Shown here: in pieces, positions 4,818 to 64,000 of the stretch | Layout of the letters: each line of letters starts with the position of its first letter | Position numbering within the stretch: the stretch's first letter is position 1 | Source: a virus | DNA: 64,000 bases | Direction: 5' to 3' (one strand) | Virus record (IMG/VR): IMGVR_UViG_3300005293_000009 | Coordinates: 2,416 to 66,415 of that record | Notes under the pieces: model-generated | Told to the model about the DNA's origin: nothing | Databases searched by the model: none | What the model saw: only the letters and a program-made list of their open reading frames with translations | Translations under genes and position numbers: made by a program

Positions 4818-4837
4818 TCTTCCTGGAATACAGATAG

Positions 4838-4862
4838 GGGCACCGGGGATTTTCCGGTGCCC
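4838..4862 (+). terminator. Hairpin, putative terminator
   Basis: GGGCACCGG-N7-CCGGTGCCC inverted repeat. Confidence 0.5.
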
Positions 4863-14122: not shown

Positions 14123-14257
14123 GCTTCTGGGGGGCGAGCTTCGTCGTTGGACTCGCTCCCCAGATTTCTTTCACATCCGACTTGACAACGGAACAACGAC
14201 ACTGATAGTCTGTAATCACGGCACAGGAAGTGCCCACAACGACAGAAGGAAAAGCTC

Positions 14258-16432
14258 TTGGAACTCGTACAGAACACTGTGACTGTCCAGTCGAACATGC
14301 AGTTCGATGAGACGTTCAAGGTCGGAATCGCGGACGATGACGCGGCAGTCTCGATGGTCATCGAACGCCTCATCAGCGCCTACAAGAACCCGTATCTCGC
14401 CGCTCTCCGCGAGTACACGTCGAACGCCTATGACGAGCACGTAGAGGCTGGCGTCAGCCGCCCGGTCGAGGTCAGCCTCCCGAGCGCACTCTCACCGGTC
14501 CTGAAGGTTCAGGACTTCGGTCGAGGCCTCACCCGCGAAGGCCTGAAGGGCTTCGGCACCATCGGCACGTCCTCCAAGCGTGGCACGAACGAACTGACCG
14601 GTGGCTTCGGTATGGGCTCCAAGTGTGCTCTTGCGGCTGCTCCGACCTTCACGGTCGTGTCCGTCCGTGACGGCAAGCGCAACACGGTGGTCGTGGCTCG
14701 TGACGAGAACAACGTCCCCCACATGAACTTCCTCGCGGAGACTGAGACCACGGACGAGACCGGCACTACGGTCATCATCCCCATTTCGGACGCCAGTAAG
14801 TTCGGTGACCTCACCAACTTCTGGACCGGCTGGAAGCCTGGCACCATCCTGGTCGATGACGAGCAGCCGAAGCGCTCCCTCCACAACCCGGATCAGTATC
14901 GCGCCATGCGGAACGGGATCGCCTACTACGACCTCTCCAACACACCCTCATCGCGTGACGAAGTGCGTGTCGTGATCAACCAGGTCACCTACGAACTGAA
15001 CTACAAGGACCTCGGGCTGACCTACAACCAGCGCGAAATCCTGAAGTACTACGTGGTGCGTCTGGATAACGGCACGGTGGAAATCGCACCGTCTCGTGAA
15101 ACCCTGCTCTACAATGCCCGCACGAAGGCGGCAGTCGAGGCACGTATGGACGCTGTGCTGTCGCTGTCGGCTATCGAGCAGGCGAACGCGATCACGAACG
15201 CTCCTGACATCAAGACGGCGCTGACGCTGCTGGACCGGATGCGGAACAACGGATACCCCACCACAGGTATCAAGTTCAACGGTACCGGAATCGCTCTGCC
15301 GGGTGCGGTCATCAACGGCAACGTTGTCCCGGACGCTATGGGCACCTGGGCTTCCCCCCACCGCGACCACTCCATCAAGACGGGGTGGCGCGTGGACAAG
15401 GAGTTCCGTTCGCTGAGCGGTCGGAAGGTGTGGCTCAACTACGACCACACCAAGTTCGTCATCATCCACAGTGCGGGTGACCCCACCCCGTACGGTCGGG
15501 CCGGTCGCCGGAAGGCTCACCGCGAGGCTTATGGTGTCGCGGAATACCTCTCCACGATTACCCCCGCCTCCGGTCGTGACTGGAACTTCTTCATCACGAG
15601 TGAGCCGCTGAAGCGTGTCAACCGTCACTACCGCGACATGGCTGATGTCATCCTTTCCGCTGACGAGTTCAACGCTGTCGTCAAGACGGTGCGTGCCGAG
15701 GCGGCGAAGGTGGCAAAGGCTGAGAGCGCCGCGAAGAAGGCGAGCCGTAAGCTGGTTGTGCTGGACAACTACTCGTCCTACCGCAACCCGGTCGAAATTC
15801 CTGCGAGCGATATCGCCAGCAACTACGACTACACGATCATCCTGCGCAATCAGGACGGCGGAATGGGTGAGCGCTTCCGCGACTCGCTCATGACGAAGGC
15901 TCACGCAAACCGGACGTGGAACACCGCGCTCGACAAGCTGCGTCGGGAGTTCAAGGTGGCGGTGGTTCTGGTCGGCAAGAATGACAAGATCGATGATCTG
16001 CTGCCGTTCATGCCCCCGGTCACCACGTTCCAGGAGCTTGCCGTCCAGAAGATCAAGGCGAGCTACGCGACCGCCTCGAAGTGGGACCTCATGGCTCAGC
16101 GTGACCGTGACACCGAGTCGGTCGATGTGTTCCGCTACCTCAAGGACCACCACCTTGACCTCATCAACAACAAGAAGACGGTCAAGTGGGCAAAGGCTGT
16201 GCGGGATTACCGTGACACCGGAGCCGAAACTCGTCGTGAGTTTGAATGGCTCTCACACTACAGCACGGAGGTTCGTGACGCCCTGGCGGGGACCCGTTCG
16301 GACGGCATGACGGCTCTCCCTGAGAGCCCCATCAAGCGGTACCCCCTGCTGCGCTCCGTCTACGGACACAGCGCCAAGCCGGAAGATGTCGTAGACTACG
16401 TGAATCTCCGGGACAAGGCCCTCAAGGGTTGA
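14258..16432 (+). CDS. rIIA: rIIA-like protein (GHKL ATPase N-terminus)
   Basis: LREYTSNAYD, QDFGRGL, TSSKR, GGFGMGSK; adjacent to the rIIB-like gene. Confidence 0.85.
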   Translation: MELVQNTVTVQSNMQFDETFKVGIADDDAAVSMVIERLISAYKNPYLAALREYTSNAYDEHVEAGVSRPVEVSLPSALSPVLKVQDFGRGLTREGLKGFGTIGTSSKRGTNELTGGFGMGSKCALAAAPTFTVVSVRDGKRNTVVVARDENNVPHMNFLAETETTDETGTTVIIPISDASKFGDLTNFWTGWKPGTILVDDEQPKRSLHNPDQYRAMRNGIAYYDLSNTPSSRDEVRVVINQVTYELNYKDLGLTYNQREILKYYVVRLDNGTVEIAPSRETLLYNARTKAAVEARMDAVLSLSAIEQANAITNAPDIKTALTLLDRMRNNGYPTTGIKFNGTGIALPGAVINGNVVPDAMGTWASPHRDHSIKTGWRVDKEFRSLSGRKVWLNYDHTKFVIIHSAGDPTPYGRAGRRKAHREAYGVAEYLSTITPASGRDWNFFITSEPLKRVNRHYRDMADVILSADEFNAVVKTVRAEAAKVAKAESAAKKASRKLVVLDNYSSYRNPVEIPASDIASNYDYTIILRNQDGGMGERFRDSLMTKAHANRTWNTALDKLRREFKVAVVLVGKNDKIDDLLPFMPPVTTFQELAVQKIKASYATASKWDLMAQRDRDTESVDVFRYLKDHHLDLINNKKTVKWAKAVRDYRDTGAETRREFEWLSHYSTEVRDALAGTRSDGMTALPESPIKRYPLLRSVYGHSAKPEDVVDYVNLRDKALKG

Positions 16433-19429: not shown

Positions 19430-19606
19430 ATGAACAAGTTCCGCGACAAGATCGCACACGCCGTGTCCAACTGGGTGCTGAACCATATCGCCACGGAAGA
19501 CTACCGTGAGAAGCTGGAGTTCATCATCGTCCTCGGCATGAATGAGCTTGAGCAGCGCGCTCAGGACGAGCGTGAATACATCGCATGGAAGAAGGGCCAG
19601 GCATGA
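19430..19606 (+). CDS. Small hypothetical protein (58 aa, not in ORF track)
   Basis: TTGACA-17-TAAGCT-6-ATG; MNKFRDKIAHAV...; ATGA overlap with the next gene. Confidence 0.65.
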   Translation: MNKFRDKIAHAVSNWVLNHIATEDYREKLEFIIVLGMNELEQRAQDEREYIAWKKGQA

Positions 19607-20535
19607 CCATCAAATTCACCGCCAAGCACAAGAGCGGTTTCAGCGTCCACTCTCAGCTTTCCGCGTTCCTCTTCCCCGATGGGGCGGCGCACATCAAGGG
19701 CGCTGACAACGAGGCGAACGAGGGCGAGTTCCTGTACGAGGTCGCGGACCTTCGCGGCTTCAGCCACACCGACCTCTTCACGCTAGCCATGTGGGCCAAC
19801 GCCTGCGACAACCGTGCCGTGGACAAGGTGCTCATCCTGCCGTACCTCCCCGGTGCGCGCATGGATCGTGGCAACCCGGAAGGTGCTGCCGTCTACTCGT
19901 GGTTCATCCTGAACGATGTCAACCCCCGCCAGATCATCACCATCGATCCGCACTCGGAGCGGGCACGGAACAATTTCTACGAGGTCTACGAGCGGGACGG
20001 TCGGCTGGACAAGTTCACCGTCTTCCCTGTGGAGCGCATCATCCGCAGGGGAGTGCAGGACGCCACCAGCGACTCCAAGCCGAACAACACCTACCAGGGT
20101 GTCATCGCCCCGGACAAGGGGGCTCACGACCGAGCAGCGCGTGCTGCGGAGGTCATGGGGGTTCCGGTCTACACCGGAGGCAAGACGCGCGACTTCGAAA
20201 CCGGCAAGATCACCGGCTTCCACATGGAGGACGAGCTTCCCGACGAGGGCCGCTTCCTCATTGTAGATGACATCTGTGACGGTGGCGGAACCTTCCTCGC
20301 TCTCGCTGAGGCTACGGGCCTTCCGAAGGAACGGCTGGACCTGTGGGTCACGCACGGCATCTTCTCGAAGGGGCTCAAGGAACTGCTGAACCATTTCGGA
20401 ACCATCCACACCACGGACTCGTACCTCGGCGGTGATGAGAATGACCCCATCCTCGCTCAGGTCATGATGAGCGGGGGGCGTGTCAAGATTCACCCCCTCA
20501 CACCCTACCTGTACCCGGAGATTAGCCCCGCCTAG
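19603..20535 (+). CDS. Ribose-phosphate pyrophosphokinase-like protein (possible ADPR-PP synthetase, NARP1 Adps-like)
   Basis: FPDG, PYLPGARMDR, IDPHS, IAPDKGA, IVDDICDGGGTF, VTHGIFS. Confidence 0.85.
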   Translation: MTIKFTAKHKSGFSVHSQLSAFLFPDGAAHIKGADNEANEGEFLYEVADLRGFSHTDLFTLAMWANACDNRAVDKVLILPYLPGARMDRGNPEGAAVYSWFILNDVNPRQIITIDPHSERARNNFYEVYERDGRLDKFTVFPVERIIRRGVQDATSDSKPNNTYQGVIAPDKGAHDRAARAAEVMGVPVYTGGKTRDFETGKITGFHMEDELPDEGRFLIVDDICDGGGTFLALAEATGLPKERLDLWVTHGIFSKGLKELLNHFGTIHTTDSYLGGDENDPILAQVMMSGGRVKIHPLTPYLYPEISPA

Positions 20536-20575
20536 GGGGTTGACAAACCTAACCAGAAAGACGTAGACTAAGAAC

Positions 20576-20992
20576 ATGAAAACACGCACAAAGATCACAG
20601 GCGTAGGCCTCGCGGCAGTCCTGGGCGTCTTCGCCCTCACCGGGGCCGCATGTGCCTCCGACGCCGACAAGGCTTCCGAGAACATCAGCACCGCCGCCGA
20701 AGCCTTCGAGGTCCAGCGTACGCTGGTCGCTACCAACGGCATCACCGGACAGGTCATGCTCTTCGCTGAGGGTCGCTGCTCGTTCGAGCACCCCAGCAAG
20801 ATTCGCATCGACATCACATGCAAGTACGGCCCGGATGAGTACCGCCGTCACACCTACATCAAGGGTGATCAGGATCAGGTCGTCATCAGCCAGGAAGAGT
20901 CCATCGATGTGAGCGAGTACCACTCGCGCATCGTCATCAAGCCGCAGAACGTCATCCCCGAGTTCGACATCATGGTGGGCGAGGACGAGTAG
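20576..20992 (+). CDS. Putative lipoprotein
   Basis: Basic N-terminus, hydrophobic stretch and lipobox-like GAAC. Confidence 0.65.
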   Translation: MKTRTKITGVGLAAVLGVFALTGAACASDADKASENISTAAEAFEVQRTLVATNGITGQVMLFAEGRCSFEHPSKIRIDITCKYGPDEYRRHTYIKGDQDQVVISQEESIDVSEYHSRIVIKPQNVIPEFDIMVGEDE

Positions 20993-21004
20993 TCCGACCC
21001 CTAA

Positions 21005-21034
21005 GTAGCCCCGGTCTTCGGATCGGGGCTACTT
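21005..21034 (+). terminator. Terminator hairpin
   Basis: AGTAGCCCCGGTC-TTCG-GATCGGGGCTACT. Confidence 0.75.
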
Positions 21035-21114
21035 CCATATCTGGACTTGACACCGATGCGATCATCGGTATAGACTGAGTACAGACCGAAAGACAATCAA
21101 CCAGAAAGGCTCGC

Positions 21115-22632
21115 ATGAGCAAGTTCGACCCCATCCAGGCACTCATCGATACCGATGCGTACAAGCTCGGGCATATCCACATGTACCCGGAGGGAACCAC
21201 GCGAGTCCTCTCCAACTTCACCGACCGAGGCTCTCGCATCCCGGACCTGACGCACACGGTCCACTTCGGACTTCAGGCGTTCCTCCACTCGTGGATCACC
21301 GACGCCTGGGCACCCTTCTTCGCGGCGGATGAGGATCAGGTCTGCGACCTGTACGAAGAGTTCACCACGTCTGTCATCGGGCCGAACACCATCGGCACGG
21401 ATCACATTCGTGCCCTGCATAAGCTCGGATACCTGCCGCTCCGCTTCCGCTCGCTGCCGGAAGGTAGCCGCGTCCCGATCCGGGTTCCGAAGTTCACGGT
21501 GGAGAACACCGTACCGGAATTCTTCTGGCTGACGAACTACATCGAGACGGCAATGTCCTCGGAAGTTTGGCAGATCGCCACGTCCGCCACCATCGCTGAC
21601 CGCTTCCGTAAGCTGCTCGATGAGTGGGCAATCAAGACGACCGGCTCGACCGAGGGTGTGCAGTGGCAGGGCCACGACTTCTCGTTCCGTGGCATGGCTG
21701 GCGTTCACGCCGCCGCGCTGTCGGGTATGGGGCACGCACTCAGCTTCACCGGCTCGGACAACCTCAACGTCATCCGCGCGGTGGACAACTACTACGGCCC
21801 TGCCGAGGGTCTGATCATCGGATCGGTCCCCGCTACAGAGCACTCGGTCGCTACCGCCTTCGGCCCTGCCGATGAGCTTGGATACTTCAACCGTATCCTG
21901 GACCAGAATCCCGCTGGCATCCTCTCGGCAGTCTCCGACTCGTACGACCTGTGGAATGTCCTCACCGATATCCTTCCGCAGATCAAGGACCGTATCCTCT
22001 CGCGTGACGGCAAGCTCGTCATCCGCCCGGACAGCGGCAACCCTGTGGATATCCTCACCGGCACTATCCAGAACACCGACCCGGAGTGGGGACGTTCAGT
22101 CAACACCCGCACGCCTGCCGAAGTCGGCACCGTGGAACTGCTGTGGGATGTCTTCGGCGGCACCGTCAACGAGCAGGGCTACAAGGTCCTGGACCCGCAC
22201 ATCGGCGTCATCTACGGTGACTCGATCACCTATGACCGCGCGCTGCAAATCTTCCAGCGGCTTGAAGCGAAGGGTTTCGCTTCGACCAATGTCGTGTTCG
22301 GCGTCGGCAGCTTCACCTACCAGTACCAGACTCGTGACACGTTCATGAGCGCCATGAAGGCGACCTGGGTACAGGTCAACGGTGAGGGTAAGGACATCTT
22401 CAAGGACCCGGCTACCGACAGCGGGACCAAGAAGTCGGCTCGCGGTCGGATCGCGGTCCTTCAGGATTCGACTGGCGACTACTTCCTGGTGGACAGCACG
22501 TCATCGCCCGACGCCTCCGAGATTGAGGGTGGAGATTTCGATCACCTGAATACTGTCTGGGAGGACGGTAAGTTCCTGGTCGAACACACCTTCGCTGAGG
22601 TCCGCGCACGTCTGGGGCATATCAATGGCTAA
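21115..22632 (+). CDS. Nicotinamide phosphoribosyltransferase-like protein (possible Namat)
   Basis: TDAYKLGH, HDFSFRG, PATEHSV, SDSYD, IRPDSG, IYGDSI, KKSARG. Confidence 0.9.
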   Translation: MSKFDPIQALIDTDAYKLGHIHMYPEGTTRVLSNFTDRGSRIPDLTHTVHFGLQAFLHSWITDAWAPFFAADEDQVCDLYEEFTTSVIGPNTIGTDHIRALHKLGYLPLRFRSLPEGSRVPIRVPKFTVENTVPEFFWLTNYIETAMSSEVWQIATSATIADRFRKLLDEWAIKTTGSTEGVQWQGHDFSFRGMAGVHAAALSGMGHALSFTGSDNLNVIRAVDNYYGPAEGLIIGSVPATEHSVATAFGPADELGYFNRILDQNPAGILSAVSDSYDLWNVLTDILPQIKDRILSRDGKLVIRPDSGNPVDILTGTIQNTDPEWGRSVNTRTPAEVGTVELLWDVFGGTVNEQGYKVLDPHIGVIYGDSITYDRALQIFQRLEAKGFASTNVVFGVGSFTYQYQTRDTFMSAMKATWVQVNGEGKDIFKDPATDSGTKKSARGRIAVLQDSTGDYFLVDSTSSPDASEIEGGDFDHLNTVWEDGKFLVEHTFAEVRARLGHING

Positions 22633-22993
22633 GACGAATTCGCTCAAGGAAGTTCCGTACGGTACAAAGCGGCTGAGGGTGGGGAAGGACCTTGTGGAGT
22701 ACCCTACCCTCCTGGAGTACACCTACGGCAGTCCGGAGTATCCCTCTGCGGGTGTCACCTACAAGGACAACCTGCCGTTCGAGGCCACGCTGAAGATCGT
22801 CTCTCTTGAGCGAGGACGTTCGGCGGCACGATTCTGGTTTCAAGATATTGATACCGGCACCTACTATCCGTTCTTCGGGCAGACCCTTGTTGATATGTTG
22901 GAGCGTACTGTGGCAGATCATGGTGTCGTTGAGGGCACCTGGATTGCCGTCAAGAAGGGTTCCAACTACGGCATCGAACTGTACACCCCCTGA
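22625..22993 (+). CDS. Hypothetical protein
   Basis: ORF overlapping the stop of the Nampt-like gene. Confidence 0.6.
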   Translation: MAKTNSLKEVPYGTKRLRVGKDLVEYPTLLEYTYGSPEYPSAGVTYKDNLPFEATLKIVSLERGRSAARFWFQDIDTGTYYPFFGQTLVDMLERTVADHGVVEGTWIAVKKGSNYGIELYTP

Positions 22994-23030
22994 GGTTGAC
23001 ACCGGTTACTGGAGACGCTAGGCTTTAATC

Positions 23031-24107
23031 ATGCGAAGACGACTTCGAATCTGGATTTACTGGCTGAGCGAGAACGCCGCAGCCGTCCGGGGGGATTTCC
23101 CCACAGCCCGCTATTACCTCGCCAGGAGAATAGAAGAGGAAAACAAGTGACACGTTTTGAAGTAGTCTTTGAGACCGCGCTCTACCGCTCGGTGTTCGTT
23201 GAGGCCGCTGACAGAGAAGAGGCGGAGACGCTGGCGGTGGAGAATCACTTCCCCGCCAGTGAGCTTCCGCTGCCTCCGGGGTACGATCTGAACCCCGACT
23301 GGTTTGTTGAAGGAACGGTGCGGGTGCGCGATGACGACTGACACCGAACTGCATTCGTCCGACGAGTGGTCGATTCTGCTCGATGTTCTCGTGGTCAATC
23401 CTGACGGATGGGATCGCTCGAACTTTGCACAGGACTGGGCTCGCCCCATTACCCGTCCGGAGTTCATCCGGAAGGTTGGGATGAGCACCATCGACATGAG
23501 AGGGCGGCGGGGCCGATGACTGATGAGAAGCCTGTAGCCCTCGGCTGGGTAGACGTGGACCAACTTGCCGCACGTATTGAGCGGGAAGTAGAGCCCTCAT
23601 TTCTGGAACTGGTTTACGGCAACCCCGCCAACACCAGAACCGTCGAGTCCCTGCTTCAAGAGGTTTACCGCCAGAGGGGGTGCCATGTCGGACGTAGGTG
23701 ACGTGAACCAGGCGCATACGCCTGGCAGCGGTGGCACCCTCGGAGACGAGCTTGAGACCTACCTGCTCGCTGCCCAGCGTGTCCATGAGGGCGGCACCAT
23801 GCTTGACCGTATGGTGTTCCAGTCGCTCCACAACGCGCAGAATGTGATCACCCTCGGCAAGATCATCACCGCTCTTGAGGAAGAGAATCGGACGCTGATG
23901 GAAATGCTGTACGGGGGACTTGACGGAATGGGTTGAGTGCGGTAGGCTTACTCCATGGCAACCAACGAGTTCAGGTCCAGTAACGGATTCACCGTCCGCA
24001 CCGTGGACTACCAACACATCTACATCGACAACGTGTACCTCAACCGCCCACACCTGGAGGCGCTTTTGGAGTACGCCGAATATCTGAGAGAGAATCCAAT
24101 CCGATGA
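23031..24107 (+). CDS. Run of six tiny hypothetical genes (23031-23150, 23147-23341, 23331-23519, 23516-23701, 23685-23936, 23955-24107)
   Basis: Tightly overlapping ORFs; leaderless promoters at 22996 and 23920. Confidence 0.55.
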
Positions 24108-25033
24108 GCATTCCCCACATCCCCACGCCGGTCTCTGGCGTCGTGCGATTCGTCAAGAACGATATCTTCATCGCGTTTGTGGTCGCAATCGTCCTGTCGG
24201 GGGCGACCTTCGCACTCGGCTTCGCGCTGCACTGGTTCCCGAACGGGGTCAACGGCTTCGAGGTTGCCGCCGCCACGCTGAACTACGGCGCGACCTACCT
24301 CAGCATCAAGCAGCGCCGGTTCGCCTACACCCTCGGCTTCGTGGCGTCTGCCTTCTGGGCGGTCGCGTACTACCAGTACAACCTGCTTGGCTCCGCGATC
24401 CTCTCGCTGTACCTTGTGGGTCAGCTTATCTATGGCTACTTCCGCTGGGGTCCTGACGGCAAGACGCGCCCGGTGCATAAGTTCCAGTGGAAGTGGGCGT
24501 GGGCCTATGCGCTCGCTACCGTGCTCACCTACGCGGGTGCGGTCGGTATCATTACCCTCTTCGGCGGCAGCTTCGCCTTCTGGGATGGTGCCATTCTGGT
24601 GCTGACTATCCTCGCGCAGTTCCTCCTGGACAACAAGGTGCTCTCGTCTTGGTACGTGTGGGGTGCCGTCAACGTGATCGGTGTCGTGCTCTACACTACG
24701 GCAGGCGCTCCGTTCGCTGCGGTCCAGCAGTTCATCTTCGGCGTGGCTAACATCTGGGGCTTCATTGCCTGGAAGAAGAGCATGGAAAATTCGGGTGAAA
24801 ATTTTTCTGAAAGGGCCATTTCAAAATCAGAGCCCAAAGAAGAATCTCGTCTAATGTTCATAGATGAATCAACGGGCGAGAGCCCTCTCGTCAAGCGTCT
24901 CGTGGGTGAGCAGTACAGCGGAAGCTCGAAGGTGGACGCCACATTCCACCCGCACACGTCTCTGTTCCTGATGAGCGGTGAGAAGCCGATCATCCGTGAC
25001 GCGACCACCGAAATCGATCAAATCAAGCCCTGA
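24104..25033 (+). CDS. pnuC: PnuC-family nicotinamide riboside transporter
   Basis: Multi-TM; YGYFRW, FWDG, AQFLLDNK...SWYVW; adjacent to nadR. Confidence 0.85.
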   Translation: MSIPHIPTPVSGVVRFVKNDIFIAFVVAIVLSGATFALGFALHWFPNGVNGFEVAAATLNYGATYLSIKQRRFAYTLGFVASAFWAVAYYQYNLLGSAILSLYLVGQLIYGYFRWGPDGKTRPVHKFQWKWAWAYALATVLTYAGAVGIITLFGGSFAFWDGAILVLTILAQFLLDNKVLSSWYVWGAVNVIGVVLYTTAGAPFAAVQQFIFGVANIWGFIAWKKSMENSGENFSERAISKSEPKEESRLMFIDESTGESPLVKRLVGEQYSGSSKVDATFHPHTSLFLMSGEKPIIRDATTEIDQIKP

Positions 25034-48672: not shown

Positions 48673-48863
48673 CAAGCTGCCGGTTTCTCCTTCCGGCTTC
48701 CCCGGCCCCGGCTCGCGTCCTCCCTTCCGCGAGTCGGGGCCTTCTCCGTTTAGTGCCCGGACTCTTACGTGGTTATGGATGCCGAAGATAAGGTCATCGC
48801 TTATAGTTGACATGCGGTACCGGATCATGTAAGCTGGAGCTACGCCGACGAAGGGAAATCGAA

Positions 48864-49622
48864 ATGGCGAAGATGCTGACAGTGCAGGTTGAGGAAGGCC
48901 CCCTGGTCATTCCGGTTGCCGTGGATGTGTGGCAGGAGTGGATCGACGTTCACGCCGACGAGGATGAGGATGGGTTCGCGCTCGCAGAGGCGTACCTCTA
49001 CGCCGACGAGGATGGTGCGATCATCTGCCAGTGTTGCGGCGTGAACTACAACCCGGCAGTTGACAAGGACTGAAGAGTCCTGTAGGCTGTAACTACAACG
49101 AACAGGAAGGGAAATCATGTTCACTCTCAAGCTCACCGATTCCGATGAGGCACTCCAGGTCGAAGGCATCGACCTCAACGTCTGGGACTCGAACCTCTAC
49201 GGCTCTGGACCGGCGCGCGGTATCGTGGTCACCGGATACCCCATGTTCAAGGACGAGAACGGTCTCTGGGACACCGACACCGATGTCATCCTGTTCAGCG
49301 CCGACACCAACTTCAATCCGGAAGAGTGGGACGAAGACGCCTGGTACGGCCTGAGCGAGGACACCGCCCCCGGCGAGGTCCCGAATGAAGTCATGACCCT
49401 CGTCAATAACATCCTCAAGGAGCTTTCGGTATGAGCACGATCACCGTTCACCCCCGGTTCGCCACCCTGGAATGGGCGTGCAACAACGACGATGAGCACG
49501 AGGGTGCGGACGACCAGGAAATCGTCCTCCAGCCTCTCTCGGACATCGAGGATTCCGGCACCGCGATCTGCCCGCAGTGTGGCGAGGACATGGAACTCGT
49601 GAGCGTGACTGTCACGCAGTAG
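48864..49622 (+). CDS. Three small acidic proteins (48864-49073, 49117-49434, 49431-49622)
   Basis: TTGACA promoters at 48807 and 49060; GAAGGGAAATC leaders. Confidence 0.6.
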
Positions 49623-49704
49623 TCCCAAAGTAGTGCGGGTCGGGTTTGACATCCGGCCCGCATTGCTGTACGCTTGAAGTATCAGCCAAACGGAAGGGAA
49701 ACCA

Positions 49705-55550: not shown

Positions 55551-55673
55551 TCACCAGCTTATCATGGTTGCGGAGCGTATGTCAACTTCAATCTCATCCA
55601 ATTTCAGATTTGTTTTCGCGCCAGAGTATGCTAAGCTTGCCGTAGGCAGAACAACAGAGAGAAAGGAACTGCC

Positions 55674-55883
55674 ATGAACGAGGACTTCGAGTCGGAGCTT
55701 TACGACGAGGGCTTCCTGGACGACATTGAGTCGTTCTCGGACACGTCCCTCGATGACGAGGACGAGGACTGGGACGACGAGGACGAGCCCGAGTACGATG
55801 ACGCGGACTACTGGGACGAGCGCCAGGCCGCGTACGACGACGAGTGGCCCGACCCGCTGGAACTTCCGAGCTACGGGTCGTAG
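55674..55883 (+). CDS. Extremely acidic small protein
   Basis: About half of the residues are D/E; leader AACAGAGAGAAAGGA. Confidence 0.7.
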   Translation: MNEDFESELYDEGFLDDIESFSDTSLDDEDEDWDDEDEPEYDDADYWDERQAAYDDEWPDPLELPSYGS

Positions 55884-56015: not shown

Positions 56016-56237
56016 TCAGGCGAAGATTCCGCGTGCCGCTTCCCAGGCTTCCTGGGCTCGGGCTTCTTCCCATCCCCGGTTCTCGTAGTAGCGTTCTACT
56101 GCGAGTTCTGCCTGAACCTCAGCGTACGATTCTTCGGCATCCGGGAGGTATTCGCAAATCTGCGCGAAGGTGAATGTAACGCCGGGGCGAATCAGGCCGC
56201 AACGCTTAGCGCGGGCGATGATATCCATGGGGTTCAT
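56016..56237 (-). CDS. Hypothetical protein
   Basis: Minus-strand promoter; AACAGAGAGACAGGGA leader. Confidence 0.65.
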   Translation of the reverse strand: MNPMDIIARAKRCGLIRPGVTFTFAQICEYLPDAEESYAEVQAELAVERYYENRGWEEARAQEAWEAARGIFA

Positions 56238-56426
56238 TTCGTTCCCTGTCTCTCTGTTTAGTTTCTGTCTTGCTGTATATCTATACTCTACAGCACAATG
56301 CCGCGAGAGTCAAGCCGAGATTCAAGAAAAAAACTTTCCGTTCTAGGTTGACACGTTGCCAGGCATAGGGTAATGTTGTACTTACAAGGGCAGAGAGCCC
56401 CAAACCACAACAGGAAGAGAAACATC

Positions 56427-57210: not shown

Positions 57211-57533
57211 GGTCCCCGCCCCTCGCGGGCCAGCACGCAAGAGTCTGCCCACTAAACAGAAGAGCCGCGACCCTCGCGGATCGCGGCGTTCCGTGCCGCC
57301 GAGCGCGTGCGCGCTCGCTGTGTGCGGCTGTCGGCGTGCGGACTGGTCCGGGAGCCTTTCCGGAGTTCCTGCATCGCGCGGTACTGGGCTGTCGGCTCAT
57401 TCTTGCGCTTGCTCATACTGAAAGCTTAGCACACTCTCGCGAGGATGCAAGACAAAAGTTTTTTTAGTTTGAGCTTGCATTCTCGCTGGAACCTGATAAG
57501 CTTGCTATCAAGAGCAAGAGAGAGGAACCCCAA

Positions 57534-58145: not shown

Positions 58146-58249
58146 GGCAAGGCAAGCGCCCTAGAATCTCTCAGAGAATCTAGGGCGTTTGACTTGACAG
58201 AATGGCGCGGCATGCCTTATGCTTGTACTAACAGGGAGAGAGGAACCCC

Positions 58250-59305: not shown

Positions 59306-59341
59306 AGTACGATAGTACTAACAGAGAGAAGGGAAGCCCCA

Positions 59342-59650
59342 ATGGCTACTCAGACGGCAATCATCCTCGGCCAGGACGGCACTGTCACGGAAGTGCAGTA
59401 CGCCGAAAAGGACTCGTACCCCACGATGCGCAACGCGGTCGGCGGCATGATCGAGTCCGTGTCCTACTGGACGAAGAACATCGACGCCTACGTGAACGAA
59501 GAGGGCCTGTACACGCCGGGACTGGAAGTGAACCCGTTCGGGCGCAAGGTCTTCGGTCAGCGCTGGATGGGCAACATCGTGATCCCCCGCGTGACGCCCA
59601 CGAAGCGCAAGCGCCTCGCGGCGATGGGCCTGCCCATCGCGCAGGCCTAG
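59342..59650 (+). CDS. DUF3846-like protein
   Basis: MRNAVGGMIESV, YVNEEGL, NP, GNIV. Confidence 0.7.
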   Translation: MATQTAIILGQDGTVTEVQYAEKDSYPTMRNAVGGMIESVSYWTKNIDAYVNEEGLYTPGLEVNPFGRKVFGQRWMGNIVIPRVTPTKRKRLAAMGLPIAQA

Positions 59651-59714
59651 CGCCTCGCACAAGCCGCCCAGATGCCGATTAGGTGTCTGGGCGGTTCTGT
59701 GTTAGAGTAGAGAT

Positions 59715-59845
59715 ATCGCAACGCGGGGCTTTGACTGTGAGACTCAGCGTGAAATCGGAGTAATAGCCTCCGGAGTATGCACCCGCTTGCGTTGGCCCTA
59801 GCCGGTCTCCCTTCCTCTCTGTTCATCCGGCTAGGGCCTCTCTCG
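59715..59845 (+). ncRNA. Candidate ~130-nt sRNA with an anti-leader loop
   Basis: Extended -10 TGnTAGAGT at 59700; no ORF; 12-bp stem 59794-59838 with loop CCTTCCTCTCTGTTC. Confidence 0.55.
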
Positions 59846-59884
59846 TTTTTGACACAGCGCTAGAGTAATGCTAGACTTGAATGT

Positions 59885-60262
59885 ATGGCCCTTCCCATCC
59901 TCGTCGGCGTAGGGGCGTTCGTGATCTTGGCGATCATGCTCGCCCTTCTTTGGACGAGCGCACGCTCTGACGAGAAGACAGACGCCGTAACGCAGGAAAT
60001 CATCATCAAGGCCAATACGGGGCCTGTCATCGTGCACGCGCCCGTTGACACAACGCAAGAGGAGGAACACTAAATGCGAAACTTCTGGAATGTAGTACGT
60101 GAAGTCGAGTGGTACGCCGTGCTATCTATTGTGCTACTAGTCATCGCGCTAGTGCTCGCCGTGCTTATCGCCGTAGGCGTTATCGCCCCTCTGCTATGGG
60201 TGCTCATTATCGTACTGACACAGGCTGCTGTGGTCGCCGCTGTACTGTCTCACCGGACTTGA
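59885..60262 (+). CDS. Two small membrane proteins (59885-60073, 60074-60262)
   Basis: One and two TM helices; RBS GGAGG. Confidence 0.6.
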
Positions 60263-60293
60263 CCCGCTAGCCGGTAGGGTGTATGCTTGTCCC

Positions 60294-60851
60294 ATGGGAC
60301 AAGCAACAGAGAAGCAGACCACGCTCATCAAGAGCCTGCTGGACGAGCGCGAAGTCGGATCGACTGAAGCGCTCATCCGTGGGGCTCTGGACTCGGGCTC
60401 GCTGGACATTCGTTCGGCGTCCGAGTTCATCACGAAACTCTTCGCCGCGCCTCGCAAGCCGAAGGCCGCGCCTGCGGAGTCGCCCTGGACGAAGGCGAAT
60501 GCCGCGCTCGCGAAGGTGGAAATCTCGTTCTACGCGATTCCGGCAGGATACGTCACGGCACAGCGTATCGACCTGTACGGCTCGGACTACCTGTTCGTGC
60601 GCGTGCGCAACTATCAGGGCAAGCGGTATATCTCGCGCGTGCACGGCGCACCTGGCTCGCCCCGGTACTCGCGTATCGACCCTGTGACGACTCTGGCGCT
60701 CGCGACCATCATGCAGGACCGTCACGTCGAGTTTGCGGCGCTCTGGCACGAGCACAGCGGGCGCTGTGGGCGTTGCAACGCGACCCTGACGGATCAGGTT
60801 TCGCGTGAAAAGGGCCTCGGGCCTGACTGCGCGAAGGTCTGGGGCCTGTAG
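60294..60851 (+). CDS. DUF6011-like zinc-finger protein
   Basis: GRCGRCNATLTDQVSREKGLGPDCA. Confidence 0.75.
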   Translation: MGQATEKQTTLIKSLLDEREVGSTEALIRGALDSGSLDIRSASEFITKLFAAPRKPKAAPAESPWTKANAALAKVEISFYAIPAGYVTAQRIDLYGSDYLFVRVRNYQGKRYISRVHGAPGSPRYSRIDPVTTLALATIMQDRHVEFAALWHEHSGRCGRCNATLTDQVSREKGLGPDCAKVWGL

Positions 60852-60910
60852 GGTTCGCATTCTCTCCCGTTGTATGCTAGGCTAGGTGCAACGGGAGAGA
60901 GGAACCCCAG

Positions 60911-61632
60911 ATGTGCACTTGCGAAAACCCCATCGCTACCGGCTCGGAGTGGTACAAGATTCCGGGCGGGCGCGAGCGGCTGTGGTGCTGCCACCTGTGC
61001 GGAGGCGACCTGCCTGCCGAGACGGAAGGCGGATACAGCGCCTCGCTGATCCAGTACTGAGCGAAGGGTGGGCCTGCGGGCTCACCCTTTTCTCTTGCCC
61101 GTTTAGCGCCCGTACTCTTGCGTGGCATTGCTGCGGCGCGCTGCCGAAACTCCCGCGAAACTCGCCACATTCTGGGTTGTACTTTGACGCGAGAGTGTGT
61201 TAGGATTGTATCAACAGAGAGAGGGAGACCATGGAAACCATCAAGGTCATCAACATCAGCCGGATCAAGAACTCGCGCAACGGGAACGCCCGGTTCGAAC
61301 TCGAACTTCAGGACGGGACGAAGCGCCAGACGGCGGCTGACTCGTCCTACGCCGCTGACGTGGAGAACGCCTATCACGCCTGGGACGGCGCGTCAGGGCT
61401 GACGGCATCCGTGGAGTACAACGGATGGGGAAAAATCACCCGCTTCGCGGTGCTTGCATTCCACAGCCGAGTATGATAGGCTGTAATCACAACAACAGAG
61501 AGGGGAGCAGAAATGCTCATCATGACGCAGGCACAGGCCGAGGACTTCGGTCTTGAGCACCTGGACATGACCAAGGTCACGATTCTTACCGAGGCCCAGA
61601 TGCAGGCCCACATCCGGAACCTGCTCGGCTAG
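60911..61632 (+). CDS. Three small genes (60911-61060, 61231-61476, 61513-61632)
   Basis: Purine-rich leaders and own promoters. Confidence 0.6.
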
Positions 61633-61700
61633 CCGCCACAGAAAACCCCCAAACCCCCAGCCGCCAGGTCGGGGGTTTTCTGTTGTAGTAGAATGGGTGC

Positions 61701-62135
61701 ATGAGCGAAGATAAGACACCCGAGGCTGTAAAGCCCACTAAGACTTCCGTACCCTCGCCCGATGAGGAGCCGAAGCAGGCTAGCGCAAAGCCCGCAGGAG
61801 CCAAACCCGCCACGCGCAAGATTGCGCCCGGTAGCGTGGTAAGTGGCGAGGATACGGACCCCATTAAGTACAGTAGCGCGAAGCCTAGCCCGCTCAAGCG
61901 CGTGCTAACCGTGCTGCACCTTCAGCGCCGCCTAGTGGAAGAGGGATTCACAGAGGCCGCTAGCTCGCCTGGAGGCCGCTACGACGAGCTAACGAAGCGT
62001 GCGGTATCCCAGTACCAGGAATCGCTAGGCGAGGCCGCTACGGGGCTCCTAACGCGCGAGCAGTTCGCGGGCCTGTTCGAGGGTGACCCGAATGTGTCGG
62101 TATCCCTCGACACCCACGAGGACCACGCGGTTTAG
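61701..62135 (+). CDS. Peptidoglycan-binding domain protein
   Basis: VLHLQRRL...GF...GRYDELTKRAVSQYQ...ATG (PG_binding_1 pattern). Confidence 0.7.
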   Translation: MSEDKTPEAVKPTKTSVPSPDEEPKQASAKPAGAKPATRKIAPGSVVSGEDTDPIKYSSAKPSPLKRVLTVLHLQRRLVEEGFTEAASSPGGRYDELTKRAVSQYQESLGEAATGLLTREQFAGLFEGDPNVSVSLDTHEDHAV

Positions 62136-62240
62136 TGGTCAGACTCTTGTGTGCTCTCGTCCTGGTGTCGTTCTGGGTGATCCTAAACTGGTCCCCGTCT
62201 GAGGTTGACACTCGGACTGAGGACGTGCTAGAGTAGAGTC

Positions 62241-62495
62241 ATACAGGCGGTCGCACAAGGAGCCGCCGAACCTCACCCAAGGATGGTGAGCGGTCCAGCC
62301 GAAAGTGTGATAGGCTGAATCACAGAGGGGCAAGAGCCTGAGCCACCTACCGGAGAAGTTCCGGGTCGCCCCTCTACTACAACTTCATAAACCTGCTCGG
62401 ATGAGCCATGCGGTGTTCCCATTGAGTAACAGAGCCGCCTGCCCCGGTGTCAACAACCTTCCTCTCTGTTCCCTAGTTGACACCGGGGCATTTCT
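62241..62495 (+). ncRNA. Candidate ~250-nt structured RNA with an anti-leader loop
   Basis: TTGACA(62205)-18-TAGAGT; no start codon at +1; closing stem CAGGCGG/CCGCCTG; several hairpins; 14-bp terminal stem 62441-62489 with loop CCTTCCTCTCTGTTC. Confidence 0.6.
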
Positions 62496-62534
62496 CTGTT
62501 AGGCTCAGAGTATTCAAGGGGAGAGGAACCCAAC

Positions 62535-63549
62535 ATGCTTTACTTCATCATCGGCGCATCGCTCGCATTCGGGCTGTTCATGGGGCTGAAGACTGCGCAC
62601 ACGGCCACTGTAGAGGGCGAGAGCGTAGCAGACGCGCGCCTCCACGGCGTGCTGGGCGGCGTGCTGTGCGCTGTGTTCGCGGCGTGGGCGCTGTTCCTGG
62701 CGTGGGGCGTGGGCATGGCCTACTGGCACTTTATCGTCGCCTGAGCGCGACACGCTAGCGGTCTAGGTTTGCAACCTAGGCCGCTTTGCTGTAGGCTGTA
62801 GGTATGGATGCAGAGGTACGCGAGACACTGAGCCGCCACGGTATGACCGACGCGGATATCGAAACGCTCGCGGCGTTTGAGGCGCAGACGCGCAAGCGCA
62901 AGCCGCGCGCAAAGATTGTTGCTGAGCCGCTTGACTTTGGCGACTGGGCATAGTAGACTGGAACTATTCAAGGGGAGAGGAACCCGAAATGTTTCACGTT
63001 ATCTACACCAAGCACACGCGGTTCGGATACGTCACGCGCGTCAAGACGATCCGTACCGGTATCGAGGGCGTTCGTAAGTTCGTCACGACCCGCTGTGCGC
63101 CTGAGACTCACGTCATCGTGAAGTACGCGCGTACCGGGCAGGTTGTTTCGGTCTGGGCTTGACACTCGCGCAAAGAGTAGAGTAGAATAGAGTCATGACA
63201 GAGACACAGCCCACAGAGTTCGAGGACATGGTTGAGCCCGAACTGTGCCCCCACTGCGACCGCTACTTCGACGCAGACATTCGCGCGAACTGGGTTTCGA
63301 CCCCGTTCCACCTGATCTGCGGCCAGTGCGGCACCAACATCTGGCCCGAGAACGAAGTCAAGTGGCAGGAGCGGTAAAAAGTTCGGGGGAGAATGCTTGA
63401 CATTCTCCCCCGTACTATGTTAGACTGTAGGTACAGAGGGAGAGAGGAACCCCGAAATGACCGCTTACGAAGTACCTGCACTGGCACCCCGGCCCTGCTC
63501 GCATGAGGGCATCGTTCACCGCCCGTTGCTCAACGCGGAGCAGGACTGA
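62535..63549 (+). CDS. Five small genes (62535-62744 membrane, 62804-62953, 62989-63162, 63195-63377 Zn-ribbon, 63457-63549)
   Basis: Each has its own promoter. Confidence 0.6.
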
Positions 63550-63653: not shown

Positions 63654-63776
63654 CTAGTCGTCCAGGTCGAGGTCCCACTCGCCCGAGTCGATGTAGTCCT
63701 GGTCGAGTTCCGCCTGGTCGATAGCGGCCTCGCCCTGGTAGAGCGCGTTGCTCCGGATGCTTGCGTAGAGTGCCAT
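63654..63776 (-). CDS. 40-aa acidic protein (MALYASIRS...)
   Basis: AACAGAGAGGGAGG leader and minus-strand promoter. Confidence 0.55.
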   Translation of the reverse strand: MALYASIRSNALYQGEAAIDQAELDQDYIDSGEWDLDLDD

Positions 63777-64000
63777 GGGGCCTCCCTCTCTGTTGATACA
63801 AGTCTAACATAGTCTGTCGCAGAATGCAAACCCGAAACCCTGGCCGTTTTTAGGTAGGGATTCCAGTCTATCGGGTTTTCGCCCAGGATGCAAGAGGGAA
63901 ATTCAAGAATCTTTTTTCGGGTTTTGGTATTGCAACCCTGCCAACCTATGCTAAGCTGGTACTACCAACCAGGGAGAGGAACCCTAAAATGTCGAAGATC

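What the first reader, a model, noticed from the sequence alone, without database searches (positions are those of the whole stretch)
59794..62489. Two candidate sRNAs display the same 15-nt loop, antisense to the phage's own early mRNA leaders
Seen: two unrelated perfect stems (59794-59838 and 62441-62489) enclose the identical CCTTCCTCTCTGTTC (59810-59824 and 62457-62471). Its complement contains AACAGAGAG, which lies at the 5' end or RBS of at least six nearby genes (55653, 59320, 61213, 61494 on +; 56250-58 and 63786-94 on -). Both hairpins terminate promoter-driven, ORF-less transcripts. Known: C/U-rich loops that pair with SD regions are a standard Gram-positive sRNA mechanism (e.g. RNAIII). 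Inference: trans-acting antisense RNAs switch off leadered early (and perhaps host) mRNAs while the phage's leaderless mRNAs are immune, giving an RNA-based temporal switch.
Basis: partly seen in the sequence, partly recalled or inferred. Interest (0 to 1): 0.8.

Follow-up and report, generated by a model that had tools for sequence, protein, structure and literature searches.

The report
Phage small RNAs with anti-leader loop
A group of large soil phages of Microbacterium-type hosts carries small non-coding RNA genes ending in a hairpin whose unchanging loop mirrors the ribosome-binding leaders of the phage's own early genes, so one RNA may control that whole gene class, though no transcript or effect has been measured.

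Summary
Two strong hairpins (59794-59838; 62440-62490) with unrelated stems each display CCTTCCTCTCTGTTC in a 21-nt open loop.

The window is the end of a 66-kb contig related to ~190-kb Microbacterium phages, where this region lies in the apparent terminal repeat. I found ten such hairpins in eight phages or contigs. Stems differ but always pair: 94 of 94 cells, and 11 of 12 pairs changed on both sides. The loop core TT[C/T]CTCTCTGT is fixed.

Each hairpin ends a short unit with its own promoter-like site. None has a conserved ORF, and two have no start codon before the loop.

The loop complement overlaps three leader types found only in the early region. It matches 17 of 118 called start regions by 8 nt or more, all 17 early; 0 of 2000 shuffled loops did as well. 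In three relatives the pairing reaches 14 of 14 or 17 of 18 nt.

Best reading (about 0.55): chaperone-free base-pairing sRNAs that mask early leaders and spare leaderless mRNAs. Expression, repression, timing and host targets are untested.

There is no Rfam match. This scan has noted similar, unverified anti-leader RNAs in unrelated phages.

The parts
59700..59708 (+). Extended -10-like promoter element (TGTTAGAGT) of the hp1 RNA, directly after the terminator of gene 59342-59650
   Evidence: The same TGnTAnnnT type lies 34-47 nt before the hairpin in A3Wally, L137, L136 and Cece. Big4 and Zooman have TAAGCT or TAGGCT 42 nt upstream; a -35-like TTGATC 17 nt before it is my reading of the printed sequence. 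Function as a promoter is inferred.
59715..59850 (+). Predicted hp1 small RNA (about 135 nt): variable 5' stem-loop, then the terminator hairpin and a U-rich tail
   Evidence: Fold (-54.4 kcal/mol, z -3.0, loop unpaired). No conserved ORF. The ends are inferred, not mapped.
59794..59838 (+). hp1 hairpin: 12-bp stem, 21-nt loop at 59806-59826, conserved core at 59810-59824
   Evidence: Covariance-model match of 57.1 bits, E 2.9e-12.
62205..62234 (+). Promoter-like site TTGACA-18-TAGAGT of the hp2 RNA
   Evidence: 10 of 12 matches, with TG before the -10. The L136 orthologue has TTGACA-18-TAAAGT and L138 has TTGCAT-17-TAGAGT.
62241..62498 (+). Predicted hp2 RNA (about 255 nt): structured 5' and central domains (core 62324-62375) plus the terminator hairpin
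   Evidence: Fold (z -2.9). It is homologous to a ~276-nt unit in L136, with a nearly identical central domain and compensatory changes. L138 has a ~104-nt version.
62440..62490 (+). hp2 hairpin: 15-bp stem, 21-nt loop at 62455-62475, core at 62457-62471. Its 3' arm carries TTGACA (62477-62482), which sits 17 nt before TAGGCT (62500-62505) of the next gene's promoter
   Evidence: Covariance-model match of 28.9 bits, E 5.6e-05. The -35 overlap was read from the sequence and is also seen in L136 and L138.
55653..55666 (+). Type A leader of gene 55674-55883 (acidic 69-aa protein): 13 of 14 nt complementary to both loops. This is the best contiguous match in the window outside the two loops themselves
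   Evidence: Net interaction about -18 kcal/mol. The protein shares a C-terminal motif with Big4 gene 30 and Zooman gene 27, whose leaders match their own loops in 17 of 18 nt.
59320..59336 (+). Type A leader of gene 59342-59650, the gene just upstream of the hp1 RNA: 9 + 6 bp with one bulge
   Evidence: Net about -20 kcal/mol. Its Cece relative, gene 30, has a leader with a 14 of 14 match to Cece's loop.
61213..61230 (+). Type A leader of gene 61231-61476, starting 6 nt after TAGGAT
   Evidence: hybrid -24.6, net -17.5 kcal/mol.
61494..61503 (+). Type A leader of gene 61513-61632
56242..56258 (-). Type A leader of minus-strand gene 56016-56237
63781..63794 (-). Type A leader of minus-strand gene 63654-63776
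57519..57527 (+). Example of the type B leader (AGAGAGGAA then CCCC). Others are at 58237, 58517, 58796, 60896, 62521, 62975, 63441 and 63974
   Evidence: Net -7 to -12 kcal/mol.
49104..49112 (+). Example of the type C leader (GGAAGGGAA). Others are at 49692, 50889 and 52856, with GAAGGGA-type leaders at 47372, 48864, 50453 and 51697
   Evidence: Net -11 to -15 kcal/mol with the hp1 loop.

Best explanation
These are two paralogous, independently transcribed small non-coding RNAs of a lytic, roughly 190-kb actinobacterial phage. They are encoded among the densely promoted early genes, which in the cultured relatives lie in the apparent long terminal repeat.

Each RNA has a variable 5' structured part and a 3' terminator hairpin. 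The hairpin's unusually large loop (19-23 nt) presents a fixed pyrimidine sequence, core UUCCUCUCUGU. That loop is the overlapped complement of three leader types used only by early leadered genes: A (AACAGAGAG at the mRNA 5' end), B (GAGAGGAA) and C (GGAAGGGA).

The proposed action is direct loop-to-leader pairing without a chaperone. This would cover the 5' end and the Shine-Dalgarno region, block 30S binding and perhaps create an RNase III substrate. The result would be damped or shut-off translation of leadered early genes, type A most strongly. The phage's many leaderless mRNAs, and leadered genes outside the early region, would escape.

Shown here: the structure, its conservation with covariation, loop invariance, the complementarity statistics and the promoter-like and terminator-like context.

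Inferred: transcription, pairing in vivo, the sign of the effect and its timing.
For: (1) Structure under selection. Ten hairpins were found in the window, four cultured phages and three metagenome contigs. Stems are 11-16 bp and all paired, with 2-5 pair types at each of the ten positions nearest the loop. Mean identity of the 5' arms is 0.34, yet the loop core is fixed apart from one C/T. On the model-fitted alignment of 8 of the 10, 94 of 94 cells pair and 11 of 12 pairs change on both sides. No shuffle out of 500 reaches this, and slid controls pair 27-49%. The neighbouring 185-aa protein is only 41-54% identical among four of these phages.

(2) The orientation is tied to transcription. 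The pyrimidine version lies on the strand of the flanking genes in 10 of 10 hairpins. The purine version lies on the sense strand of every leader, including the two minus-strand genes.

(3) Own transcription unit. A promoter-like element lies 34-229 nt upstream in 8 of 10 by a strict pattern. Big4 and Zooman have a -10-like hexamer. All hairpins have U-rich tails.

(4) Not coding. Big4 and Zooman have no start codon before the loop. I read the possible frames across the loop by hand from the sequences and the start lists, and they differ between phages.

(5) Complementarity. Of 118 called start regions, 17 hold 8 nt or more of perfect complement to the hp1 loop. That is 17 of 41 early genes and 0 of 77 others. 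Shuffled loops give 2.9 +/- 2.6, and 0 of 2000 reach 17.

The result repeats with each relative's own loop: A3Wally 10 against 2.4 (1 of 500 shuffles as high), Big4 15 against 3.2 (1 of 500), Zooman 13 against 3.1 (2 of 500) and L136 6 against 0.8 (7 of 500).

The longest matches are 17 of 18 nt (Big4 gene 30, Zooman gene 27) and 14 of 14 nt (Cece gene 30).

(6) Energies. Hybrid plus opening energy with the hp1 loop is -15 to -20 kcal/mol for type A, -11 to -15 for type C and -7 to -11 for type B. It is about 0 or positive for two leaderless genes and +2 to -9 for six leadered genes outside the early region.

(7) Leader types A, B and C occur in 20 of 41 early genes and 0 of 77 others.

(8) Precedent. 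The 6C sRNA of Actinobacteria binds purine/G-rich RBS regions through C-rich loops without a chaperone (PMC6486639, passages read).
Against: There are no expression data. No RNA run holds this DNA, and I found no transcriptome of the relatives in four literature searches.

Any pyrimidine-rich loop is somewhat complementary to purine-rich ribosome sites. The shuffle tests control for composition but not for shared ancestry of loop and leaders.

In Cece the count is not above chance: 5 against 2.6, with 81 of 500 shuffles as high.

A3Wally keeps the exact 15-mer but has no ACAGAGAGRRRG leader. Its best matches are only 9-10 nt, so the invariant CUGU part is unexplained there.

The unit is dispensable. 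L135 lacks it cleanly. Pumpernickel has only a hairpin with a similar loop in the opposite orientation.

Loop and leader co-variation is thin. It rests on one lineage (Big4 + Zooman) and one C-to-U change (Cece).

The promoters resemble those of the proposed targets, so a delayed switch needs an extra assumption, namely a stable, accumulating RNA.

The energy estimate ignores the topological strain of long helices inside a closed loop.
Confidence: 0.55

Rival explanations
1. The loop is a protein-binding site on RNA. The hairpin would then be a decoy or sponge for a host or phage protein that binds single-stranded pyrimidine-rich RNA. Alternatively it would be a control site where a protein modulates termination, in the manner of nut boxB or RAT/antiterminator systems (mechanisms recalled).
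For: An invariant loop on freely varying stems is also what a loop-specific RNA-binding protein would select. The 19-23-nt loops are unusual for simple terminators: the terminator scan, which allows loops of 3-8 nt, did not list either hairpin. A3Wally keeps the loop without long leader matches.
Against: This reading does not explain why the loop is the ordered complement of the early leaders (0 of 2000 shuffles; repeated in four of five relatives tested). It does not explain the 14-18-nt matches either. No candidate protein was identified.
Confidence: 0.12
2. The main targets are host RNAs. The loop would pair with ribosome-binding regions of host mRNAs, or with another host RNA, as part of host takeover. 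Complementarity to phage leaders would then be secondary.
For: The location among small early genes in the apparent terminal repeat. The loop is invariant even where phage leaders differ, as in A3Wally. A phage sRNA acting on a host mRNA has been reported (bioRxiv 10.1101/2024.10.31.621285, search listing and start of abstract only).
Against: Untested. The loop-plus-flank 18-mer has 10 matches in the representative bacterial genomes, none titled as an actinobacterium; their contexts were not inspected. This rival is not exclusive of the best explanation.
Confidence: 0.12
3. The loop acts in cis. When the upstream terminator is read through, the hairpin becomes the 3' end of the upstream mRNA and pairs with that mRNA's own leader.
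For: In the window and in Cece, a strong match is the leader of the gene immediately upstream: 59342 has 9 + 6 bp, and Cece gene 30 has 14 of 14.
Against: A terminator hairpin and a separate promoter-like element lie between that gene and the hairpin in every hp1-type case. In Big4 and Zooman the best target is two genes away. hp2-type RNAs follow a different gene. Most complementary leaders are elsewhere.
Confidence: 0.08
4. The motif works on DNA. One asymmetric double-stranded site would be bound by a phage or host protein, acting as an operator at +1 of early promoters. The copies in hairpin loops would be further binding sites.
For: The same duplex sequence occurs at promoters and in the loops. 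Pumpernickel has a similar loop in the opposite orientation.
Against: Ten of 10 loops have the same orientation relative to transcription. A DNA site gives no reason for perfectly covarying flanking stems. Its distance to the next promoter varies, being about 20 nt greater in window hp1 than in A3Wally. Types B and C match different parts of the loop, which suits base-pairing better than a single protein site.
Confidence: 0.06
5. These are ordinary intrinsic terminators. The shared loop would be a hitch-hiking remnant of duplicated promoter-leader cassettes with no function of its own.
For: GC-rich stems with U-rich tails at the ends of transcription units.
Against: A neutral remnant would not stay fixed at 10 of 11 core positions in ten copies (the eleventh varies only C/T) while the stems diverge to 0.34 identity and a neighbouring protein to 41-54%. 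Most other terminators listed here have 3-8-nt loops.
Confidence: 0.05

Closest known systems
6C sRNA of Actinobacteria (Rfam 6C; Mai et al. 2019, PMC6486639, passages read)
   Same: A short, highly structured sRNA of high-GC Gram-positives. Its unpaired C-rich loops pair with purine/G-rich ribosome-binding regions of several mRNAs and repress them without Hfq or ProQ.
   Different: No sequence or model similarity: no Rfam match at the gathering score or at E up to 10. The present RNAs are phage-encoded and have one CU-mixed loop of 19-23 nt in the terminator hairpin. Their best partners are the phage's own early leaders. Nothing has been tested experimentally.
c4 antisense RNA of phages P1 and P7 (as reviewed in PMC12197685, passages read)
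   Same: A phage-encoded, trans-acting RNA. Its loop-displayed sequences pair around the ribosome-binding site of a phage mRNA (ant) and block its translation.
   Different: c4 belongs to a temperate-phage immunity circuit with one target operon. Here a presumably lytic phage (an inference from its cultured relatives) has about 20 candidate targets of three leader types. No Rfam family matches the window.
Abundant early non-coding RNAs of Cluster A mycobacteriophages L5, D29 and StarStuff (Dedrick et al. 2017, PMC5712189, passages read)
   Same: Actinobacteriophage non-coding RNAs made from an early promoter near a genome end. They are stable and abundant.
   Different: Those RNAs come from a ~500-bp region at the right end, have unknown function and are toxic to the host. 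No anti-leader loop is described in the passages I read. No sequence relation was tested.
T4 RegB endoribonuclease and RegA translational repressor (recalled, not from a call)
   Same: Post-transcriptional shut-off of a class of early phage mRNAs, recognised through their ribosome-binding regions.
   Different: Those are proteins. Here an RNA would do the recognising. The analogy concerns function only.
RNAIII and RsaE-type sRNAs of Staphylococcus
   Same: C/U-rich hairpin loops that pair with Shine-Dalgarno regions of several targets.
   Different: Host-encoded, from low-GC bacteria and of unrelated sequence. The present loop also covers the mRNA 5' end upstream of the ribosome site.

Membership tests
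Trans-acting base-pairing sRNA with a C/U-rich seed loop (functional class) | Independent transcription unit: own promoter and intrinsic terminator | tested here: inconclusive
   Promoter-like elements lie upstream of 8 of 10 hairpins by a strict pattern, and a -10-like hexamer in the other two. All have U-rich tails. No RNA data exist.
Trans-acting base-pairing sRNA with a C/U-rich seed loop (functional class) | Non-coding: no conserved ORF | tested here: met
   Big4 and Zooman have no start codon before the loop. Elsewhere the possible starts and frames differ between phages (frames read by hand). A3Wally's annotated gene 29 spans the hairpin but looks like an over-extended start of the membrane-protein gene.
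Trans-acting base-pairing sRNA with a C/U-rich seed loop (functional class) | Conserved single-stranded seed held by a structure supported by covariation | tested here: met
   94 of 94 cells pair, 11 of 12 pairs change on both sides and 0 of 500 shuffles reach this. The loop core is fixed in 10 of 10 apart from one C/T.
Trans-acting base-pairing sRNA with a C/U-rich seed loop (functional class) | Seed complementary to translation-initiation regions of several mRNAs beyond chance | tested here: met
   17 of 118 start regions against 2.9 +/- 2.6 for shuffled loops, 0 of 2000 as high. Repeated in A3Wally, Big4, Zooman and L136 but not in Cece.
Trans-acting base-pairing sRNA with a C/U-rich seed loop (functional class) | Regulation of targets shown, with compensatory mutations | not testable with these tools
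   Needs reporter and phage genetics.
6C RNA family (Rfam) | Match to the family covariance model | tested here: not met
   No Rfam family reaches its gathering score in the 64-kb window. At E up to 10 in 59600-62600 there were only two unrelated weak matches.
c4 antisense RNA family (Rfam C4) | Match to the family covariance model | tested here: not met
   Same scans: no match.
Intrinsic (Rho-independent) terminator | GC-rich stem, short loop (usually 3-8 nt), then a U tract | tested here: inconclusive
   The stems and U-rich tails fit. The loops of 19-23 nt lie outside the scan's 3-8-nt range, so neither hairpin was listed. The U tracts are interrupted (for example TCTCTCGTTTTT and TTTCTCTGTT).
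icaR-type 5'-3' UTR pairing in cis | Anti-SD element and target leader on one transcript | tested here: inconclusive
   A terminator and a promoter-like element separate the upstream gene from the hairpin. Read-through cannot be excluded without RNA data.

The most novel reading that the evidence does not exclude
One 11-15-nt loop would serve as a master key for a gene class. It is the overlapped complement of three early leader types, so a single small RNA (in two paralogues here, and two gene copies per genome in relatives through the terminal repeat) would shut off or meter the whole leadered part of the host-takeover programme after transcription. It would be an RNA counterpart of T4 RegA/RegB. 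Leaderless mRNAs would be exempt by design. Together with the similar, unverified cases this scan noted in unrelated phages, this would point to a widespread and unrecognised layer of phage gene timing.
Probability: 0.3. Interest if true: 0.8.

Novelty: new variant of a known kind. Interest (0 to 1): 0.6.

Why it matters
Temporal control in lytic phages is usually explained by promoters, sigma factors, antitermination and a few proteins acting on mRNA. A conserved phage sRNA that recognises a whole class of early leaders would add an RNA-based layer to that picture.

It would also help explain why these phages mix distinctive leadered mRNAs with many leaderless ones. And it would give a chaperone-free, programmable translation switch for Actinobacteria.

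The cultured relatives (A3Wally, Big4, Zooman, Cece on Microbacterium foliorum or M. radiodurans) make this directly testable. The finding also corrects annotation: A3Wally gene 29 probably covers a non-coding RNA gene.

Tried and rejected
Coding reading: rejected. See and the hand reading of frames.

Known RNA family: none. No tRNA or tmRNA in the window.

Close DNA relatives in the phage collection: none by megablast.

IMG/VR searches. A 14-mer scan gave 113 stretches (80 listed). I opened one (L080), which was unrelated. The rest were not inspected and I treat them as uninformative. Protein-based scans of viral contigs found no relative.

Actinomycetia phage DSL-LC01 shares the 185-aa protein but has no such hairpin in the intergenic region I read.

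A genome-contig scan with the PnuC-like protein found nothing. No host genome was therefore available, and host targeting is untested.

The 18-mer scan of genome contigs gave 10 matches, none titled as Actinobacteria. Their hairpin context was not examined.

Expression: no RNA holder is listed. Laying four soil DNA runs gave only partial contig cover. There was none over hp1, and one 151-nt contig covers 62441-62505 with 2 differences. I draw nothing from this on expression or absence.

MAFFT alignments of the hairpins were not structure-aware. I replaced them with a position-from-loop table and a covariance-model alignment. L136_2 and L138 fell outside the E-value cut-off and are not in the 8-row count.

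The whole-window duplex scan was noisy in this GC-rich DNA. I replaced it with start-region tests.

Dimer MFE folding cannot represent loop-to-target pairing because it counts as a pseudoknot. I discarded it and used hybrid plus opening energies.

The comparison with a 16S anti-SD tail used a 12-mer recalled from memory and an unknown host. It gave mean duplex energies of -13.9 (loop) against -8.4 (tail) for early genes, and -10.0 against -6.9 for the rest. I give it little weight.

Literature search returned only unrelated papers. One search found no paper describing these phages' RNAs. Supplements were not consulted.

This call repeats it with that field added.

Full report
WHAT IS THERE

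The two hairpins are real and strong. hp1 spans 59794-59838 (12 bp) and hp2 spans 62440-62490 (15 bp). Each has a 21-nt loop. As RNA they fold at -27.7 and -34.5 kcal/mol, with z-scores of -6.2 and -7.4, and 0 of 200 shuffles fold as well. The loops stay open when the whole predicted transcripts are folded.

The two stems share no sequence. Both loops hold CCTTCCTCTCTGTTC.

The complement word AACAGAGAG occurs 8 times against 0.38 expected. Two copies are the loops themselves. The other six sit 8-13 nt before start codons, and three of them begin 6 nt after a -10-like hexamer, at the likely mRNA 5' end.

CONTEXT

The window is the last 64 kb of a 66,415-bp IMG/VR contig rated 34% complete. It has no near-identical relative in the phage collection.

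At 60-80% DNA identity, and by protein, it is related to Microbacterium phages of 186-195 kb: A3Wally, Big4, Zooman, Cece and Pumpernickel. It is related more distantly to Actinomycetia phage DSL-LC01.

In those genomes every copy of the loop or leader motif lies 8.6-13 kb from the left end and again at the mirrored place near the right end. This holds for 26 of 26 matches in five genomes. I take this to mean a long direct terminal repeat of roughly 15 kb, which is an inference.

The window's 47-64 kb stretch corresponds to that region. It is packed with promoter-like sites: 16 found against 2.2 expected in 54-64 kb. It encodes small genes of unknown function.

CONSERVATION AND COVARIATION

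The hp1 position lies between a conserved 102-aa gene and two small membrane-protein genes. A hairpin with the same loop is present there in A3Wally, Big4, Zooman and Cece. It is also present in two metagenome contigs, L136 and L137, found through the neighbouring 185-aa protein.

L135 lacks the unit cleanly. Pumpernickel has, one gene further upstream, a hairpin whose loop is similar (12 of 14 by my hand comparison) but in the opposite orientation. DSL-LC01 has nothing comparable in the region I read.

hp2 has orthologues in L136 and L138 but none in the four cultured phages. Each of those has only one copy of the loop per unique sequence.

Across the ten hairpins, stems are 11-16 bp and always paired. 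Each of the ten positions nearest the loop shows 2-5 pair types, and the 5' arms are 0.34 identical on average. The loop core TT[C/T]CTCTCTGT does not change.

A covariance model built from two of them finds all ten, with E from 1.6e-19 to 0.022. It finds no further strong copy in 190 kb of held sequence.

On the model-fitted alignment of the best eight, 94 of 94 cells pair and 11 of 12 pairs have changes on both sides. No shuffle out of 500 reaches the observed values, and slid registers pair only 27-49%. That alignment leans towards the model, but the hand table tells the same story.

A neighbouring protein is only 41-54% identical among four of these phages, so the fixed loop is under selection.

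TRANSCRIPTION UNITS, NOT GENES

Each hp1-type hairpin follows the terminator of the upstream gene and an extended -10-like element (TGnTAnnnT, 34-85 nt upstream). Big4 and Zooman instead have TAAGCT or TAGGCT 42 nt upstream.

hp2-type hairpins end longer units that start at full promoter-like sites: TTGACA-18-TAGAGT in the window, TTGACA-18-TAAAGT in L136 and TTGCAT-17-TAGAGT in L138.

The 5' parts vary from a simple stem-loop to a ~200-nt structured domain. Part of that domain (62324-62375) is almost identical in L136, with compensatory changes.

A 21-nt block just before window hp1 recurs before the hp2-type hairpin of L136, with 18 of 21 identical by my reading. The two RNAs are therefore paralogues with shuffled modules.

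No ORF is conserved. Big4 and Zooman have no start codon ahead of the loop, and elsewhere the possible frames differ. A3Wally's annotated gene 29 runs through the hairpin. It is best read as an over-extended start for the leaderless membrane-protein gene.

WHAT THE LOOP MATCHES

My rough gene calls give 118 start regions. Early-region genes use three distinctive leaders:
- Type A: AACAGAGAG at the mRNA start.
- Type B: GAGAGGAA followed by CCCC.
- Type C: GAAGGGA.

The counts are 7, 6 and 7 of 41 early genes and 0 of 77 elsewhere. Another 9 early genes and 20 others look leaderless.

The complement of the hp1 loop, GAACAGAGAGGAAGGGAGA, is the overlap of A, B and C.

Seventeen of the 118 start regions hold 8 nt or more of perfect complement, and all 17 are early. 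Composition-matched shuffled loops give 2.9 +/- 2.6, and 0 of 2000 reach 17.

With a start-agnostic count, each relative's own loop repeats the result in A3Wally, Big4, Zooman and L136. It does not in Cece, where 81 of 500 shuffles do as well.

The longest matches are:
- 17 of 18 nt to the leader of Big4 gene 30 and Zooman gene 27.
- 13 of 14 nt to the window gene that shares their C-terminal motif (55674, an acidic 69-aa protein).
- 14 of 14 nt to Cece gene 30, a relative of the window gene just upstream of hp1.

Cece's single loop change (C to U) makes that match perfect. The Big4/Zooman match extends into the loop flank that is particular to those two phages.

Hybrid plus opening energies rank the partners as type A (-15 to -20 kcal/mol), then C, then B. 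Leaderless genes and leadered genes outside the early region fall far behind.

MECHANISM AND RIVALS

The simplest reading is a chaperone-free base-pairing sRNA that covers the 5' end and ribosome site of leadered early mRNAs. The 6C sRNA of Actinobacteria works this way through C-rich loops (PMC6486639). The c4 RNA of P1/P7 is the phage precedent for loop-displayed anti-RBS pairing (PMC12197685). [quoted passage not shown]

Repression and a temporal role are inferred. The RNA's promoters look like those of its targets, so a delayed effect would need the RNA to accumulate.

The rivals are a protein-binding loop, host targets, cis pairing after read-through, a DNA-level site and a plain terminator. 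They are weighed in their own sections.

The orientation rule (10 of 10), the covarying stems and the ordered complementarity argue against the DNA and neutral readings. A3Wally keeps the loop but has no long match, and L135 has lost the unit. These two facts keep the protein-binding and host-target readings alive.

NOVELTY

No Rfam family matches. I found no paper describing these RNAs or these phages' transcription in four searches.

The kind of molecule is known. The family, the three-in-one loop and the setting in the terminal-repeat early region of large actinobacterial phages are new.

Earlier notes of this scan describe similar, equally untested anti-leader RNAs in unrelated phages. They are leads, not support.

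Noticed in passing
window 48679-48742 (+); L130 4737-4785; L131 5384-5420; L134 4571-4607: A second set of terminator hairpins has pyrimidine loops (UCCUCCCUUC, UUUUCCCUUC, CUUUCCCUUCCCUUUCC) complementary to the type C leader GGAAGGGAA. It occurs in the window, A3Wally, Big4 and Zooman at a different position. This may be a sister family of anti-leader hairpins.
   Followed up: partly
window 62324-62375; L136 about 4790-4840: The central domain of the hp2 RNA is nearly identical between the window and contig L136. An inner hairpin keeps pairing through two double changes. It looks like a conserved structured module of unknown role.
   Followed up: partly
L133 (Pumpernickel) 14080-14128: This hairpin after gene 36 has a 26-nt loop that reads purine-rich on the + strand. 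On the minus strand it gives CTTTCCTCTCTCTT, similar to the loop core. A TGCTAGGCT element lies just upstream on the minus strand. It is either an inverted version of the RNA gene or a coincidence. The covariance model did not pick it up.
   Followed up: partly
L135 2562-2625: This relative lacks the hp1 RNA unit. The upstream gene's terminator is followed directly by the promoter and start of the leaderless membrane-protein gene, so the unit is an accessory insert.
   Followed up: yes
window 48748-48771, 61100-61125, 62131-62155; also upstream of A3Wally genes 23, 27, 40, 41; L135 about 3797 and 4818; L136 about 4590; L138 about 1583: A recurrent site of the form GTTTAG(T/C)G-N6-ACTCTT(G/A)CGTG lies just past terminators or stop codons. 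It may be a phage-specific promoter class or a protein site.
   Followed up: no
window 60861-60900 and 63380-63416; Cece near 15400-15444: Inverted repeats bracket the -10 element of type B promoters. The upstream arm could mask the leader and ribosome site only in read-through transcripts, which would favour translation from the gene's own promoter.
   Followed up: no
window 62476-62505; L136 about 4950-4985; L138 about 1785-1815: The 3' arm of hp2-type hairpins carries the -35 hexamer (TTGACA, TAGACA, TTGACT) of the next promoter, 17 nt before its -10. Terminator and promoter therefore overlap.
   Followed up: partly
window 59664-59699; L130 about 9960-9990; L132 about 11990-12015: The terminator before the hp1 RNA has its own conserved loop sequence (GATTAGGT in the window, A3Wally and Cece; GATTTGAT in Big4 and Zooman). 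It may supply a -35-like element for the RNA's promoter.
   Followed up: no
L130 10019-10297 (A3Wally gene 29): The annotated 93-aa gene starts at a TTG inside the RNA unit and runs through the hairpin into the membrane-protein frame. The likely true start is the leaderless ATG about 90 nt downstream, as annotated in Big4, Zooman and Cece.
   Followed up: partly
window 19603-25033: There is a cluster of NAD-salvage-type genes: a nicotinamide/nicotinate phosphoribosyltransferase (21115-22632), a PnuC-like NMN transporter (24104-25033) and a weak phosphoribosyltransferase-domain match (19603-20535).
   Followed up: no
whole window: About a quarter of the called genes (29 of 118) have a -10-like hexamer 5-9 nt before the start codon and no ribosome site. 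That is an unusually heavy use of leaderless mRNAs.
   Followed up: partly
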